Shown one piece after another: positions 36,001 through 42,000 of a stretch of DNA of 64,000 nucleotides. This DNA is from Carcharhinus longimanus (lineage: Eukaryota): positions 40,296,284-40,360,283 of the forward strand of contig JASCQW010000043.1 of NCBI GenBank assembly GCA_030264375.1, written 5' to 3'. Positions within the stretch are counted from its first letter, which is position 1, and the number at the start of each line of letters is the position of its first letter. Position numbers: made by a program.

Positions 36001-39000
36001 CTGCCAACGACCCATCACTACAAACTATTAAATATAAAACTATAACAATCAGTAAAGCCAGATATGGTGTAAATTACGCTGTCATTGCAACTGCATTAGT
36101 CAGTAACGTGTAACTGTAAGCAGCAATGCTTGATATATTCAATGATCAAATGTACTGTATCAGAGCTTCTCTACAATATTACTTCACACAGAATTAAATC
36201 ATTTCTAATAAATTATATTTACTGGCGCTCTGATTGCCATAGAGAGGAATGCCACCCGAAAATGTTAATCGCATCGTCTGACAATACTACTGAAAGCACC
36301 AAATGTAAAAGCTGTAAATTAAAAGTGAGAAAGAGCCATTGTCCATTCTGGCTTGGCATCTGTAGATACAGTATATTGCACACTAACTCCATTTTAGTCA
36401 TTGTGTGATTTCTGTAGTTTCACACGGACCGCACATGTCAAAACACAATCTAGAAACAAGAGAAAAGTCTACGCACAGCAGAATGGGGAGCAAAAGAAAA
36501 TCACTTACCGCACAAACCTCGACGATGCTGCTTCCCCGACCTCAATTTTCCCCCTCTTGAAGACGGATTAAAGTTACTTTAAAAGCTCCAACTTCTTTTG
36601 ACACCTTGGATTAAAAGCAGAACGAGAGAGAATCGACCATGTTACAAAACACATCAGCCGGAGCAAAGCTCGTCATCATTCACCACCACAACAACACGTT
36701 TACGGGCCATGTGAACATTAAAGATTAAACAAAACCACGGCTGAAACAATGACAGAGAGAGTATTAACATTTAATTCCCTCCTCGGATTTGCACAGGGTA
36801 AGTTTTAAAGGGGAGGGGGGGAGGAAGCCAATTTAAAACACAGCAACATGCACAGGCCGTAATTTGCTTGCCATATAGCTTGAAGCATTAAACAATTACT
36901 GATGTAAGTCCAGTCATTAAAAACTGCGCTACAATGTTGGTTTTTTTTGAGAGCAAACAAGTTTATATTTTTTTTACTGACCAGTGAGCTGAAGACAAAT
37001 CGACTGTGAGGGCTGAGATTTGTATACATTAATTGTTTTTTTCTTTAAAAAGACAATACTTTAAAAAGCTGACATATAGAGAGCTATAGATAGAGCCATT
37101 TCTGAGAGAGGGAGAGAGAGAGAAAGCCCTGCTCGCTTTAGTCAGTCTCCCTGTCTGTGTGTATCTGCTTCTATATTTAGCGGAGGAGCAGCTCCAGCGA
37201 GAGGGGGCGGGGCCGGCGCTGTGCTCGTTCGCGTGGTGAACGCAACGTCACAAACGCGCGCCCGCGCCCGCGGGGAGGGGGCGGGAGCGAGCGGAGCGAT
37301 GGCGTGGGCGAGCGTGGGCCCGCCTGCCTGCGCATGGATACCCCTCCGCTAACGCCGTTGTTTGCAGCGTTTCCGCCCTCATCGCCCACCTCAGAGGTAA
37401 CCATCCGCTGCCAAAAAATGAGTTCCAGGGCAGGTTTCATGTTACTGGTGTGGGGGCGGCTTGGGAGTGGCCAGGTAGCATTTATGCCCCGTTATGGAAT
37501 TGCTGCTATTATTAATGATGCTCACATATATTAAAACAAAACAACTGGCAGACTTTGGTTGTTGTTGTCGAGCTTTGAAATAATAAACTCGAGCTTCGCT
37601 TTTAATAGGATAGTGGGTTATTTGGGGATAAGAATAAAATGTCAGCCAGCCCTCTCCCTCCAGGACAACGCCGAACCCATTAAGAGGCAGGGTGAACTTT
37701 TAGGAAAGTGCCTTTTTTTGACGGGTAAACAGGATTGCCGCCGCCCGATCGGGCAACAACCACCCCTTAATCCCGGCCCTCTCCACCCACCCTGCTTCAG
37801 TGCCTGGATTCGCTCCCCCACCCCATTGACGTCAGTGCCCAGGCTGTCAGTGCGCGCGGAGCTGTCAATCAAAGCCAAGTTGAGCGGCACGCGGAGCTGG
37901 AGCTGCACCGCCACTGCCGCAGATCCAGCACTCTGTCACAGCAGCAGCATGTCACAGGCGATCAATCACTACACACTGTTACTTTTAATATCAGTGCAGC
38001 ACAGATTAAATTTAAATGCAAGCAGAGTCTCTCGCTGTCTCCCCCCACCCCGCCCAAGTTCACCAAAAGAACCTGCCAAATGACGTACAGGGGGAGGTAG
38101 GCGTAATAAGTTACTGTCAAAAAATAACCATTTTATTTATTTTAGTCCTTAGCAACTTTAGATGAGTCAGAGAACATCTCACCAATAGTTATCAATGGAG
38201 CAATTCAAAATGAAATTCGGATTTAACACTTGACAGGGTCCTGGGAATCTTCTCCACTTACTATTTTAATCAGCCTTTGATCTGCATACTAAAGTACAAT
38301 ATTGTTTTTGCTAGGAACATGGTATGCCCACTGACTTCCATTATCCAACATTACAATCATTTAGTTTCGTGCAGTTTTCGGAAGACCTATAGTCACAAGA
38401 GCCCCACATCAATCACATTATCTGATAGTCTATGATAAATTCAGTGCTGTAGTGTAAAACACACTCGCCGTTTCTTTCAACCTCCCTCAACTCAACATGA
38501 TTTACTCGTTTTGTTTTATGTGAACTGCATTCCCACAATACGCAAGATGCAGTGATCGCCCACTTGCTTGTATGTGTTAGCGAGCACGTCAGGTTTATAA
38601 ATAGGGGTAAACAGAATAGTACGATAATGGCAAGAAAGCAGATAAAGTCTTCCTCTTAAAGCTCCACAAACCTAATTTAAAACAATAATAGTCACGATCA
38701 AATAACACATTTTTAAATGTCATGCAGTATTTAGTTGTATATTAAATATAAATGTGGAGAGAAAGGAAACGATTTGGCCTACAGCCGTTCGGAGTCAGTA
38801 AACATGTCTTATCACTTAGAAGGTGCAATGTCAGACGAGTAAATCAAAGATACATTTTACATTTCGGGCCTAAGCTTGGAATTAACTTGCAGGACTGTTA
38901 ATTGCGCCATAGCATTTGACATGAATACAGAAGCAATAAATAATACTGAAGTTGTAATCCTGATATAAGGTTTATCAGTTGTATAACCTTCGGGGTGGGG

Positions 39001-42000
39001 GGGGGGTGTTTGGGGGAAGAAGTCTACCACACATCCTGACAAACAGGATCTCATTTCTCTACAGTTCTTTGTAAATCAGATGGCCAAACTAGGGAAGCTG
39101 GAAACACATGGAAGGACAGATGACACACATATTGACACTGGCTGCTGTGAACATAAAATCAGACCTAGAGAAATCATATTGAGGAAAAAAATGGAAATGC
39201 AACATGAAACACTGCATTCTTGAAGCATAACCAAGTACAGGAGGGTCAATGGTCAGAGGGAAAAAATAAACTTCACCAAAACTGAAGATTGTTCTCCAGT
39301 TTGACCTAACATTCTAAGTCACATTTTATAATATTTTTGGAGCTGTTTCACCACACCAAGCACTATTGTGGTGTAGTGATTGAATAAGTAAAATCTAGCT
39401 AAAGATTTAGAGAACTTCACTAGAATTTTTGTCAATGTGTTTCAGAGGGTTTTGGATGCTCCGTTGTTAAATACATTTAAGGCAGACAGCTTTTTTGTCT
39501 TTCAGGTATTCAAAGGATACAGGGAGACGGCAGAAAAGTAGTCTTGAAACCCAAGATCAGACACAATCATTTTGAATGGTGGAGCAGGCTCCACAGGCCA
39601 TGTGGTCTACTTCTGATTCTATGTCTTGTGTATCCCTTTTCCATGACCATTGAACCCAATAGCTTGGCAGCTAAGATACAATTTATGGTGATGGAGTCTA
39701 ATCCAAAATTTATAAAATGGATTTTAAACATATTTTGCAAATCACACTTTGCAACTCTAATCATTTTTGCAAGGAAGCTAAAAGAGCAGACTCTCTGGAA
39801 CATGTTTGTACTCTGTTTTCTGATTCTGACATGCAAAGAAACACAAATAAAAAAGCCCTACATTTATAATGGTATTGTATAATCCTGTATAAAATATATG
39901 TGTGTGTGTGGGAGGTCAAATGAGTTTGCAAACCTGTCTTTGGCATTGCTTATTTCTACTTATGTTATTGCTATTATTAATTTTATTAGTCATAGCATTA
40001 TATAATGATTTGGCTACTTTGTAATCAAACTCAAAATCGCATGATAAATTCAGACCATCTCATAAAACTGTTTCAGAAGTGGCCTGCCCAAAGGGAACAC
40101 GTAGAAAATATCTCAAAGAATAATTAAATGCCAATTGAAATAATAAAACCTCGTCACATTTATGATTACCCTAAGGTACAATTTTTGTAAAAGATTAAAT
40201 ATGAAGCCAGAAATCAGTCTCAGATTTGTAACACCAGCTTATGATTTGAAGCATTTTAAGAGTTCATAGATTTGAACTCAGCTTATAGAAATCAGTGAGG
40301 TAGATTGGAATACTTTTCTCCTTCATGTGATTTCACAATCAAGTTGATTGGCAGAAAGGGGGAAAATCCAGTCTGATATAAGTTTGTTCAATTTAAAGAA
40401 GATTGGGTCTCAAGCTCATGTGCACCATCCAGTCATTACAATATACCCCACACAATTATTGACCTTGCAAGCAATGTTAACGTCCATGTAAGATGCAAGT
40501 TTTTGCATTCTATTCTCAATGACGGTTAAATTCCAATGACAGAATTGTAATGTTCCTTCCACATCTGTCCTAAATTTCATCTATAAAGTAGTTGTTAGTC
40601 GATGTTGCACTGTAATTCAATGAAGTATCAATTTCTTATTTGCAGTGAGTCTACAGAGCCTGGTGCTGCTGAAGTCTACATTAGTAGCATGACCTAGAGG
40701 ACAGCTGTAAATTATGTATGTCAAAGTCAAGATTATGTCAACTGGTTTTTGGAATTTGGACTATATCTGATTGATTTAAACAAAATCACTGGTGATATCT
40801 TAACTGTTTCCATTTAATGAAATTAATCTTTGATACTAATAAATGAAAAGGGAATTTGAGAAAAACAGCAAAACACAAGTTTTGAATGTACTGCAATGGC
40901 ATCTACATATGATAACCAGCTGTTGGACTTACTCAGATCACAGATTAATATCACTATCTAGGCATATTGGCTTGGTGCATCTGTTAGAACTGATTTAACT
41001 ATGAAAATGAAAGTTTATATTTACAGTAATTATATTCAATATAAATATGTGATATCAAATGCTTGTTTGTGACTTCAAAGCTGGCTATACATAACACTTG
41101 TCTTATTTTAGGAACAGGTTAACAAAGTTGAAGGTCCGTGGCAGCAGTATAAAAGAGTTATGGTTTTATAAAGCATTTAAACTCTTTTTATTGAGTAAAT
41201 ACTAAAACTAATTCCACCTATAGTTTCACTGAGTAAGCTGATAACTACAAAAAGATTTACCTAGATGCTTCAAAAGGAAGCATGATCGATAATAACTAGT
41301 ACAGCATACTTGACTCTTAAAATACAAGTATAAAAAAAAGATTGTTTTTACTGGAAGTCAAATTTAAACATATTGTCACTTAATTAAAAACATAAATATT
41401 ATCAGTTTTTTCTTAAACATAGTTCACTTGTTTAACATAGAAGCATTTTATTTGCAAATTCTCCTTTGCTCACCATGCACAATAAAACCCTCAAACTTTT
41501 AAGTATTTGTACTTTGCCATAGCCACTTACACCATATTACTTTAAAAAAACACTACTTAAGAATATTTCACTTATTATATAGGCTATAACTGTTTTCTTT
41601 GCTTTTAGGTCATTTCTACACAATGGAGTCTAAATGTGGTAATTTTGATGTTTTGTCATTTTTTGGTCCAAAAACTCACCAGTGTTCTCTTTCCTTCTTT
41701 CTATGCTCTGCAGCACCTGCTGCAGGCTCGGATGATCAAACACTGCAGGTAAAAAAGGAATCCTGAAGAAAAAGCCAGACCAGCTGGCTTTGAAGAGAAA
41801 CCCCCCCTCTTCGGGATGAGTTTGCTTCGGACTGTTTCTACACTGAAGACAGAGTCTTTTTCCCCTTTCGATGTTGACCTATAGTTGCATGATGCTTTGC
41901 ACAAGTGGCTGGTTGCCCTGCATCCACCTGCTTCTGTCACTCTGGGGTAAATTTAGCCCTGGAAGGTATCACTAACAGGCAGACCTTTGTCAGTTCTGGC

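What the first reader, a model, noticed from the sequence alone, without database searches (positions are those of the whole stretch)
36509..41970. Dual-promoter architecture combining MEF2C-like and MEF2A-like features
Seen: the muscle-type exon lies only ~4.5 kb upstream of a CpG promoter that has a consensus MEF2 site at the presumed start, a GC box and an NRF1-like motif. Known: a MEF2 element overlapping the TSS plus an NRF1 element is the described human MEF2A autoregulatory promoter, while the muscle exon is described for MEF2C. The exon ending at 36509 resembles the human MEF2C main exon only weakly as I recall it. Inference: either shark mef2c has a MEF2A-style autoregulated promoter, or this is mef2a retaining a paralogous muscle exon. 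Either would suggest a two-promoter design older than the vertebrate genome duplications.
Basis: partly seen in the sequence, partly recalled or inferred. Interest (0 to 1): 0.65.

Follow-up and report, generated by a model that had tools for sequence, protein, structure and literature searches.

The report
Two candidate promoters carrying MEF2 sites
A non-coding stretch of vertebrate DNA holds a CpG-island promoter and, 4.5 kb upstream, a muscle-style promoter, each beside a perfect MEF2 binding site, but the gene they serve could not be identified, so the evolutionary claim remains untested.

Summary
The window's only CpG island is at 37051-38050. A consensus MEF2 site (CTAAATATAG) sits at 37171-37180 and a GC box at 37204-37212. 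GGTRAGT splice-donor motifs end candidate exons at 36509 and 41680. The upstream region (41680-41970) has three E boxes and a 9-of-10 MEF2-like element.

Three parts do not hold up. The "NRF1-like motif" is only a half-site, 3 mismatches from the 12-mer. The start site is presumed, not shown. Both exons rest on motifs alone.

The window has no MADS-box coding exon, no Pfam domain in its ten longest ORFs and no Rfam family. No vertebrate DNA collection was available. So mef2c, mef2a or another gene cannot be told apart here.

The best reading is two alternative promoters of one gene, both probably MEF2-responsive. If the gene is mef2c, this is the expected orthologue of a published arrangement. 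One locus says nothing about the time before the genome duplications. Interest is low.

The parts
42291..42300 (-). Distal strict MEF2 consensus site, CTAAATATAG, identical to the proximal one. It lies upstream of the distal E-box region and is separated from it by a run of N (42085-42184), so the true distance is uncertain.
   Evidence: one of only 2 strict sites in 64 kb. P = 0.014 for a strict site in 42185-42500 by Markov-1 simulation.
41947..41956 (-). A/T-rich MEF2-like or TATA-like element, CTAAATTTAC, matching 9 of 10 positions of the strict consensus.
   Evidence: one of 35 sites within 1 mismatch, and one of only 2 of those within 40 nt of an E box.
41714..41930 (-). Cluster of three CAGSTG E boxes: CAGGTG at 41925-41930, CAGCTG at 41781-41786 and CAGGTG at 41714-41719.
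   Evidence: 3 observed against 0.29 expected; 0.38% of 310-nt windows hold 3 or more.
41680..41925 (-). Candidate distal, CpG-poor untranslated first exon (exon A). The 5' end is inferred at about 30 nt downstream of the A/T element. The 3' end is the donor CTG|GTGAGT, with 41680 as the last exon base.
   Evidence: Donor motif. No ATG-initiated ORF reaches the donor. 4 CpG in 41701-42000. No transcript evidence.
37651..38050 (-). Upstream CpG-rich patch. It holds the window's only full CRE (TGACGTCA, 37827-37834), its only PBX-MEIS decamer (TGATTGACAG, 37862-37871) and a TGATTGAT at 37961-37968.
   Evidence: The motif names are recalled consensus sequences, not database matches.
37201..37400 (.). 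CpG-island core: GC 0.77 and 0.67, 30 CpG, o/e 1.36 and 0.99.
   Evidence: wider segment 37051-37500.
37329..37336 (+). It is a single half-site, TGCGCATG.
   Evidence: 3 mismatches to YGCGCAYGCGCR; the full core GCGCAYGCGC is absent from the window.
37204..37212 (+). GC box (Sp1-type), GGGGCGGGG, 23 nt upstream of the MEF2 site in gene orientation.
37171..37180 (-). Proximal strict MEF2 consensus site, CTAAATATAG, at the downstream edge of the CpG-island core. It could also act as a TATA-like element.
   Evidence: P = 0.0044 for such a site in 37051-37500.
37102..37127 (-). Pyrimidine tract (20 of 20 pyrimidines) followed by CAG. It could be a 3' splice site giving an exon that starts at 37101, or simply a CT-rich promoter element.
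   Evidence: the only site of this strength on the minus strand between 41700 and 36400.
36509..37150 (-). Candidate proximal untranslated exon (exon B). The 5' end is inferred. The 3' end is the donor GCG|GTAAGT, with 36509 as the last exon base.
   Evidence: Donor. No ATG-initiated ORF reaches the donor. 14 ATGs in 37180-36509. No transcript evidence.
33501..39000 (.). CpG-preserved valley around the island. CpG o/e is 0.49-0.96 in every 500-nt bin, falls to 0.06 from 39001 and is 0.19-0.32 below 33500.
   Evidence: CpG counts per kb.

Best explanation
The interval is the 5' end of one minus-strand gene whose first exons are untranslated and which has two alternative promoters of different classes.
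- Proximal promoter: a CpG island (core 37201-37400) inside a 5.5-kb CpG-preserved, presumably germline-unmethylated, valley. It has a GC box and a consensus MEF2 site at its downstream edge. It would drive an exon ending at 36509.
- Distal promoter: CpG-poor and muscle-type (about 41680-42300), about 4.5 kb upstream. It has an A/T-rich MEF2-like or TATA-like element, three MRF-class E boxes and a further perfect MEF2 site. It would drive an exon ending at 41680.

Both promoters would be MEF2-responsive. If the gene is itself a MEF2 gene, that amounts to positive autoregulation. In that case this is the ordinary orthologue of the published Mef2c arrangement, a skeletal-muscle control region that binds MyoD and MEF2.

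Shown: the motifs, the CpG landscape and the donor motifs. Inferred: transcription starts, exon limits, splicing to a common downstream exon, factor binding and gene identity.
For: - This is the only CpG island in the 64 kb. It sits in a sharply bounded CpG-preserved valley, 33501-39000.
- The valley extends further toward lower coordinates. That fits a minus-strand gene body, but weakly.
- Both strict MEF2 sites in the window fall here. Each lies 100-800 nt upstream of one of only 9 minus-strand GGTRAGT donors. P is about 0.01, post hoc.
- Local simulations give P = 0.0044 and P = 0.014 for strict sites in the two regions.
- E boxes are enriched about tenfold in 41681-41990, and one lies next to a MEF2-like element.
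- The distal region is CpG-poor, as tissue-specific promoters usually are.
- Neither candidate exon carries an ATG-initiated ORF that reaches its donor, which fits untranslated first exons.
- Passages read: the Mef2c promoter has a skeletal-muscle control region binding MyoD and MEF2 (PMC12313707; PMC1131891). MEF2A binds its own promoter (PMC10017154).
Against: - There is no transcript, cross-species or coding evidence of any kind.
- The number of strict MEF2 sites in the window equals the chance expectation. The placement statistics are post hoc.
- Two of the three E boxes lie inside the proposed distal exon rather than upstream of it. The region could therefore be an enhancer, and its donor a coincidence.
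- Exon B as drawn carries 14 upstream ATGs, which is heavy for a 5' UTR. Its real limits may differ.
- A perfect pyrimidine tract plus CAG at 37101 allows a different exon structure.
- An equally good GGTAAGT donor lies on the plus strand at 36797-36803.
- The upstream patch with the CRE (37651-38050) could be the true core promoter.
Confidence: 0.45

Rival explanations
1. The two promoters belong to some other MEF2- and MRF-regulated gene, not to a MEF2-family gene. There would then be no autoregulation and no bearing on MEF2 paralogue history.
For: Nothing in the window identifies the gene. There is no MADS-box exon, no Pfam domain in the ten longest ORFs and no mir-9 or other Rfam family. 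E-box plus MEF2 modules and CpG-island promoters with MEF2 sites occur in many muscle and neuronal genes (general knowledge, recalled).
Against: A gene-free 64 kb with a broad CpG valley is typical of developmental transcription-factor loci, which fits MEF2C but is not specific to it.
Confidence: 0.25
2. The distal region (41680-42300) is a muscle enhancer or a chance motif cluster, not a promoter with its own exon. Only the CpG island is a promoter.
For: Two of the three E boxes lie inside the supposed exon. The exon's 3' end rests on one GGTGAGT, a motif found 17 times on both strands in 64 kb. There is no CpG enrichment and no consensus TATA, since TATAWAW has no hit in 41600-42000.
Against: A strong donor lies on the same strand as the proximal one, 270 nt downstream of an A/T element and E-box pair. 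The published mammalian Mef2c muscle control region is described as a promoter (passages).
Confidence: 0.2
3. The locus is mef2a (or mef2d) and keeps a paralogous muscle-type upstream exon.
For: A MEF2 element in the MEF2A promoter and MEF2A binding to its own promoter are described (PMC10017154 passages). One paralogous conserved non-coding sequence pair between MEF2A and MEF2C is reported (PMC3595034 passages).
Against: The NRF1 element that accompanies the MEF2 element in the MEF2A promoter is not present as a full site. There is no evidence of any kind for paralogue assignment.
Confidence: 0.07
4. The CpG island mainly serves a plus-strand or divergent transcript, and the minus-strand exon B is an artefact of motif reading.
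For: Plus-strand GGTAAGT at 36797-36803. A 21-codon plus-strand ORF from the ATG at 37334 runs to GAG|GTAACC at 37396/37397 (read). Plus-strand GC skew across the core is mixed: +0.25 in 37201-37300 and -0.10 in 37301-37400.
Against: The plus-strand GGTAAGT lies upstream of the island in plus orientation. GTAACC is a poor donor. No plus-strand coding sequence was recognised downstream. CpG islands are often bidirectional, so this does not exclude the minus-strand gene.
Confidence: 0.05

Closest known systems
Mouse Mef2c skeletal-muscle promoter/enhancer upstream of the first untranslated exon (Wang et al. 2001, Development). The paper is not held and is known here only through citing passages in PMC12313707, PMC1131891 and PMC7987942.
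   Same: A CpG-poor region with MRF-class E boxes beside a MEF2-type A/T element, next to a candidate untranslated exon and upstream of other 5' exons.
   Different: No sequence comparison was possible. Two of the three E boxes here would be transcribed. The perfect MEF2 site lies more than 330 nt further upstream, across an N run. Muscle specificity and gene identity are untested.
Human MEF2A promoter with NRF1 and MEF2 elements, autoregulated (Ramachandran et al. 2008, two J Biol Chem papers). Neither is held. They are known here through review passages in PMC10017154.
   Same: A GC-rich promoter with a consensus MEF2 site close to the presumed start.
   Different: No full NRF1 site, only one half-site with 3 mismatches to the 12-mer. 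I saw no text saying so.
Drosophila Mef2 positive autoregulatory enhancer (Cripps et al. 2004). I saw it only as a reference-list entry in PMC5187760.
   Same: The idea that a MEF2 gene is kept on by MEF2 sites in its own control DNA.
   Different: That element is a distant enhancer in an invertebrate, with no CpG island or alternative first exons. Relevant only if this locus is a MEF2 gene.
DNA-methylation valleys or canyons around promoters of developmental regulators (recalled general knowledge; no paper read here).
   Same: A multi-kb, sharply bounded block of preserved CpG around the island.
   Different: Methylation itself was not measured. It is inferred from CpG o/e only.

Membership tests
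MEF2-family gene locus (any paralogue) | A MADS-box/MEF2-domain coding exon linked to these 5' exons | tested here: not met
   Six-frame search: 0 hits for GRKKI, RKKIQ, MDERN, LMKKA and LCDCE; the TKRK and YELS hits have unrelated flanks. The coding exons may lie beyond the window, so this does not exclude the family. It only leaves membership unshown.
MEF2-family gene locus (any paralogue) | Synteny: TMEM161B and mir-9-2 for mef2c; LRRC28 and LYSMD4 for mef2a | tested here: inconclusive
   No Rfam family at gathering score in the window, so no mir-9. No Pfam domain in the ten longest ORFs. The window is too short to hold the neighbouring genes.
MEF2-family gene locus (any paralogue) | Sequence similarity of the 5' exons or promoter to orthologous MEF2 loci | not testable with these tools
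   No vertebrate DNA collection was open. The open collections hold bacteria, archaea, phages, plasmids and E. coli.
Mef2c-type skeletal-muscle promoter | MRF-class E box or boxes together with a MEF2 site | tested here: met
   3 CAGSTG E boxes in 41714-41930, a 9/10 MEF2-like element at 41947-41956 and a strict site at 42291-42300.
Mef2c-type skeletal-muscle promoter | Lies immediately upstream of a transcribed, untranslated first exon of the gene | tested here: inconclusive
   A GGTGAGT donor at 41674-41680 and no ORF reaching it, but no transcript data. Two E boxes fall inside the proposed exon.
Mef2c-type skeletal-muscle promoter | Muscle-specific activity that depends on the E box and the MEF2 site | not testable with these tools
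   Needs reporter or binding assays.
MEF2A-type NRF1 + MEF2 autoregulated promoter | Canonical NRF1 element (core GCGCAYGCGC) | tested here: not met
0 matches to the core. No site within 1 mismatch of YGCGCAYGCGCR. The consensus is recalled, not taken from a matrix library.
MEF2A-type NRF1 + MEF2 autoregulated promoter | MEF2 element in the proximal promoter | tested here: met
   CTAAATATAG at 37171-37180, 23 nt from a GC box.
MEF2A-type NRF1 + MEF2 autoregulated promoter | The MEF2 element overlaps the transcription start site | not testable with these tools
   No start-site data. If the element acts as a TATA-like box, the start would lie about 30 nt downstream rather than on it (inference).
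CpG-island promoter | GC at least 0.5 and CpG o/e at least 0.6 over at least 200 nt | tested here: met
   37051-37500 (GC 0.59, o/e 0.93) and 37651-38050 (GC 0.56, o/e 0.66). They are the only such segments in the window.

The most novel reading that the evidence does not exclude
The single MEF2 gene that existed before the two vertebrate genome duplications already had a dual design. It had a CpG-island promoter with a start-proximal autoregulatory MEF2 site, and an upstream CpG-poor E-box/MEF2 muscle promoter with its own untranslated exon. A cartilaginous fish keeps both at one locus, while mammalian paralogues each kept or emphasised one of them (MEF2A the first, MEF2C the second).
Probability: 0.08. 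Interest if true: 0.5.

Novelty: new member of a known kind. Interest (0 to 1): 0.2.

Why it matters
If the locus is mef2c, the finding extends a known mammalian arrangement to cartilaginous fish. That arrangement is a muscle-type upstream promoter with E-box and MEF2 input, plus further downstream promoters. It would show that MEF2 input at both promoters is at least as old as jawed vertebrates. This is useful but expected for a deeply conserved developmental regulator.

It would matter more only if the same pair of elements were found at paralogous mef2a and mef2d loci, or in lamprey or amphioxus. That would date self-sustaining MEF2 control and the two-promoter design to before the genome duplications. 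Paralogous conserved non-coding sequences at MEF2A, MEF2C and MEF2D loci are already reported (PMC3595034 passages), so the idea has precedent.

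Tried and rejected
- **Coding exons to name the gene.** Six-frame MADS-box motif search and Pfam on the ten longest ORFs: nothing found.
- **Non-coding RNA landmarks.** Rfam at gathering score over the whole window: 0 hits. Rfam by E-value over 30000-48000: only a sub-threshold U2-like match. ARAGORN: 0 tRNAs.
- **Tandem duplication of the two regions.** Local alignment scores were 18 and 24. 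Shuffled controls gave 20.4 +/- 2.6 and 21.2 +/- 2.7, so there is no similarity. The repeat finder also links neither region to the other.
- **Tandem repeats in 30000-48000.** None.
- **More of the genome on the script machine.** Only window.fa is present.
- **Primary papers.** Both Ramachandran 2008 papers, Wang 2001 and Agarwal 2011 are not held.
- **Paper searches.** All ten were used. None listed a paper on shark mef2 promoters or on a MEF2 site at the mammalian MEF2C CpG-island promoter. Only the top 20-25 listed rows were seen for the larger result sets, so this does not show absence from print.
- **PMC3048864 (MEF2 paralogue evolution).** Its "MEF2 sites" are protein sites, and it has no promoter analysis.
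- **Considered and not run.** Searching translated non-coding ORFs of the promoter against the large protein sets as a proxy for DNA conservation. The tool gives no genomic context, so it could not name the gene. Unnamed hits to a conserved vertebrate promoter could be human and would have been unusable.
- **Not done.** The two candidate exons were analysed one by one and never joined. Supplements were closed, including the table in PMC3595034 that locates the MEF2A/MEF2C paralogous element.

Full report
**What was checked.** The finding covers 36509-41970. I read 32900-43300 on both strands and profiled the whole window.

**The CpG-island promoter.**
- The window is AT-rich and CpG-depleted: GC 0.387, CpG o/e 0.26.
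- Only two segments pass a CpG-island test: 37051-37500 (GC 0.59, o/e 0.93, 36 CpG) and 37651-38050 (GC 0.56, o/e 0.66, 20 CpG). The core is 37201-37400, with 30 CpG.
- At the downstream edge of the core lies CTAAATATAG (37171-37180), a perfect match to the strict MEF2 consensus CTA(A/T)4TAG.
- 23 nt upstream of it lies a GC box, GGGGCGGGG (37204-37212).
The full NRF1 core GCGCAYGCGC is absent from the window. It is one half-site. The consensus patterns are recalled, not taken from a matrix library.

- The upstream CpG patch carries the window's only full CRE (TGACGTCA, 37827-37834) and its only PBX-MEIS decamer (TGATTGACAG, 37862-37871).
- The island sits in a sharply bounded block of preserved CpG. 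In every 500-nt bin from 33501 to 39000 the o/e is 0.49-0.96. It drops to 0.06 from 39001 and to 0.19-0.32 below 33500.
- I read this block as a germline-unmethylated valley, of the kind seen at developmental regulator genes. That comparison is recalled and methylation was not measured.

**The exons.**
- GGTGAGT at 41674-41680 ends a second candidate exon 4.5 kb upstream. These are 2 of the 9 minus-strand GGTRAGT motifs in 64 kb.
- Neither candidate exon has an ATG-initiated reading frame that reaches its donor, so both would be untranslated.
- Everything else about them is inference. No tool here gives transcription starts or junctions.
- Exon B as drawn (37180 to 36509) has 14 ATGs.
- The single strong pyrimidine-tract-plus-CAG site between the two donors gives an alternative exon start at 37101.
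- An equally good donor motif lies on the plus strand at 36797-36803.
- I analysed the two exons one at a time and did not join them into a spliced model. No external search of either exon was possible.

**The distal, muscle-type region.**
- 41681-41990 holds three CAGSTG E boxes against 0.29 expected. Only 0.38% of 310-nt windows hold three or more.
- The first E box (41925-41930) lies 17 nt from CTAAATTTAC (41947-41956), a 9-of-10 MEF2-like and TATA-like element. Only 2 of the 35 such elements in the window lie within 40 nt of an E box.
- The region is CpG-poor.
- The identical perfect 10-mer CTAAATATAG recurs at 42291-42300, beyond a 100-N run at 42085-42184. I did not fill that run, so the distance is uncertain.
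- These are the only two strict MEF2 sites in the window.
- Against an exon reading: two of the three E boxes would lie inside the exon.

**Is it more than chance?**
- The count of strict MEF2 sites is not enriched: 2 observed, 1.84 expected, and 55 of 100 shuffles reach 2. The looser YTAWWWWTAR pattern gives 22 observed against 11.4 +/- 3.2 expected.
- The placement is unusual. Simulated sequence of matching composition gives P = 0.0044 for a strict site in 37051-37500 and P = 0.014 in 42185-42500.
- The chance that both sites lie 100-800 nt upstream of a minus-strand GGTRAGT is about 0.01.
- These tests were framed after seeing the sites and overstate the significance.
- The two regions are not duplicates of each other.

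**What gene is it?** This is the crux, and it could not be answered.
- Six-frame translation has no MADS-box signature.
- The ten longest ORFs have no Pfam domain.
- Rfam finds no family at its gathering score, so no mir-9. ARAGORN finds no tRNA.
- The window contains dispersed repeat families that I recall as typical of cartilaginous-fish SINEs. I do not take the window for human.
- Orthology, paralogy and synteny therefore stay unchecked.

**Literature.**
- The primary papers on the MEF2A promoter and the Mef2c muscle promoter are not held.
- From passages of a review (PMC10017154): NRF1 binds the MEF2A promoter, MEF2A binds its own promoter, and the PGC-1alpha effect needs both the NRF1 and MEF2 elements.
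- From passages of PMC12313707 and PMC1131891: the Mef2c promoter has a skeletal-muscle control region binding MyoD and MEF2, with one well-characterised MEF2 site.
- A MEF2 site in a MEF2 gene's own control DNA is therefore not specific to one paralogue.
- I saw no text saying that the MEF2A site overlaps the start site. That remains recall.
- PMC3595034 (passages) reports a paralogous conserved non-coding trio at MEF2A, MEF2C and MEF2D, described as ncRNA, and one MEF2A-MEF2C pair. This is precedent for pre-duplication elements at these loci. Their positions are in a supplement I could not open.
- PMC8742872 (passages) reports three CAGE-defined Mef2c promoters in rat heart, all seen in mouse and two in human. 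Multiple Mef2c promoters are therefore already known in mammals.

**Verdict.**
The exceptions are the NRF1 element and the assumed start site.
- The best reading is two alternative promoters of one minus-strand gene, one CpG-island type and one muscle type, each with a consensus MEF2 site. I give this a confidence of 0.45.
- If the gene is mef2c, this is the expected orthologue of a known arrangement.
- The step from one locus to "older than the genome duplications" is unsupported.
- Interest is low (0.2). The boldest reading not excluded is an ancestral dual-promoter, doubly autoregulated MEF2 gene. I put it at about 0.08.

Noticed in passing
window 33501-39000: A sharply bounded 5.5-kb block of preserved CpG around the island. 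CpG o/e is 0.49-0.96 per 500 nt, against 0.06 just beyond 39001 and 0.26 for the whole window. It looks like an unmethylated valley of a developmental gene and extends about 3 kb into the presumed first intron.
   Followed up: partly
window 37827-37968: Within the upstream CpG patch lie the window's only full CRE (TGACGTCA, 37827-37834), its only PBX-MEIS decamer (TGATTGACAG, 37862-37871) and a TGATTGAT (37961-37968). This may be a second core promoter or a conserved regulatory block.
   Followed up: no
window 42058-42211: The 27 bases just before the 100-N run at 42085-42184 are repeated exactly just after it. None of the other six N runs shows this. I did not try to close or fill the gap. 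It makes the distance between the distal MEF2 site and the E-box region uncertain.
   Followed up: partly
window 37334-37398 (+): On the plus strand, the ATG inside the NRF1-like half-site opens a 21-codon frame that runs to GAG|GTAACC. This could be the first exon of a divergent transcript, or chance.
   Followed up: no
window 46716-46939 (-): A weak full-length match to U2 snRNA (26.7 bits against a gathering score of 46, E = 0.065). It is probably a decayed U2 pseudogene.
   Followed up: no
window 4161-4403, 5326-5523, 8850-9016, 22120-22431, 28386-28563, 55598-55840, 57346-57588, 59686-59969: Dispersed copies, in both orientations, of a repeat family that I recall as resembling tRNA-derived SINEs of cartilaginous fishes. 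ARAGORN calls no tRNA in them. None lies in the promoters or candidate exons.
   Followed up: partly
window 39565-39637, 44656-44728, 52417-52489: A 73-nt repeat family. One degenerate copy lies between the two promoters. The other two copies lie right at or within 34 nt of N runs, so those gaps seem to fall in repeats.
   Followed up: no
window 36509-37180 (-): Candidate exon B contains 14 ATG triplets, none in a frame that reaches the donor. That is unusually heavy for a 5' UTR and suggests the real exon limits differ from the ones drawn.
   Followed up: partly
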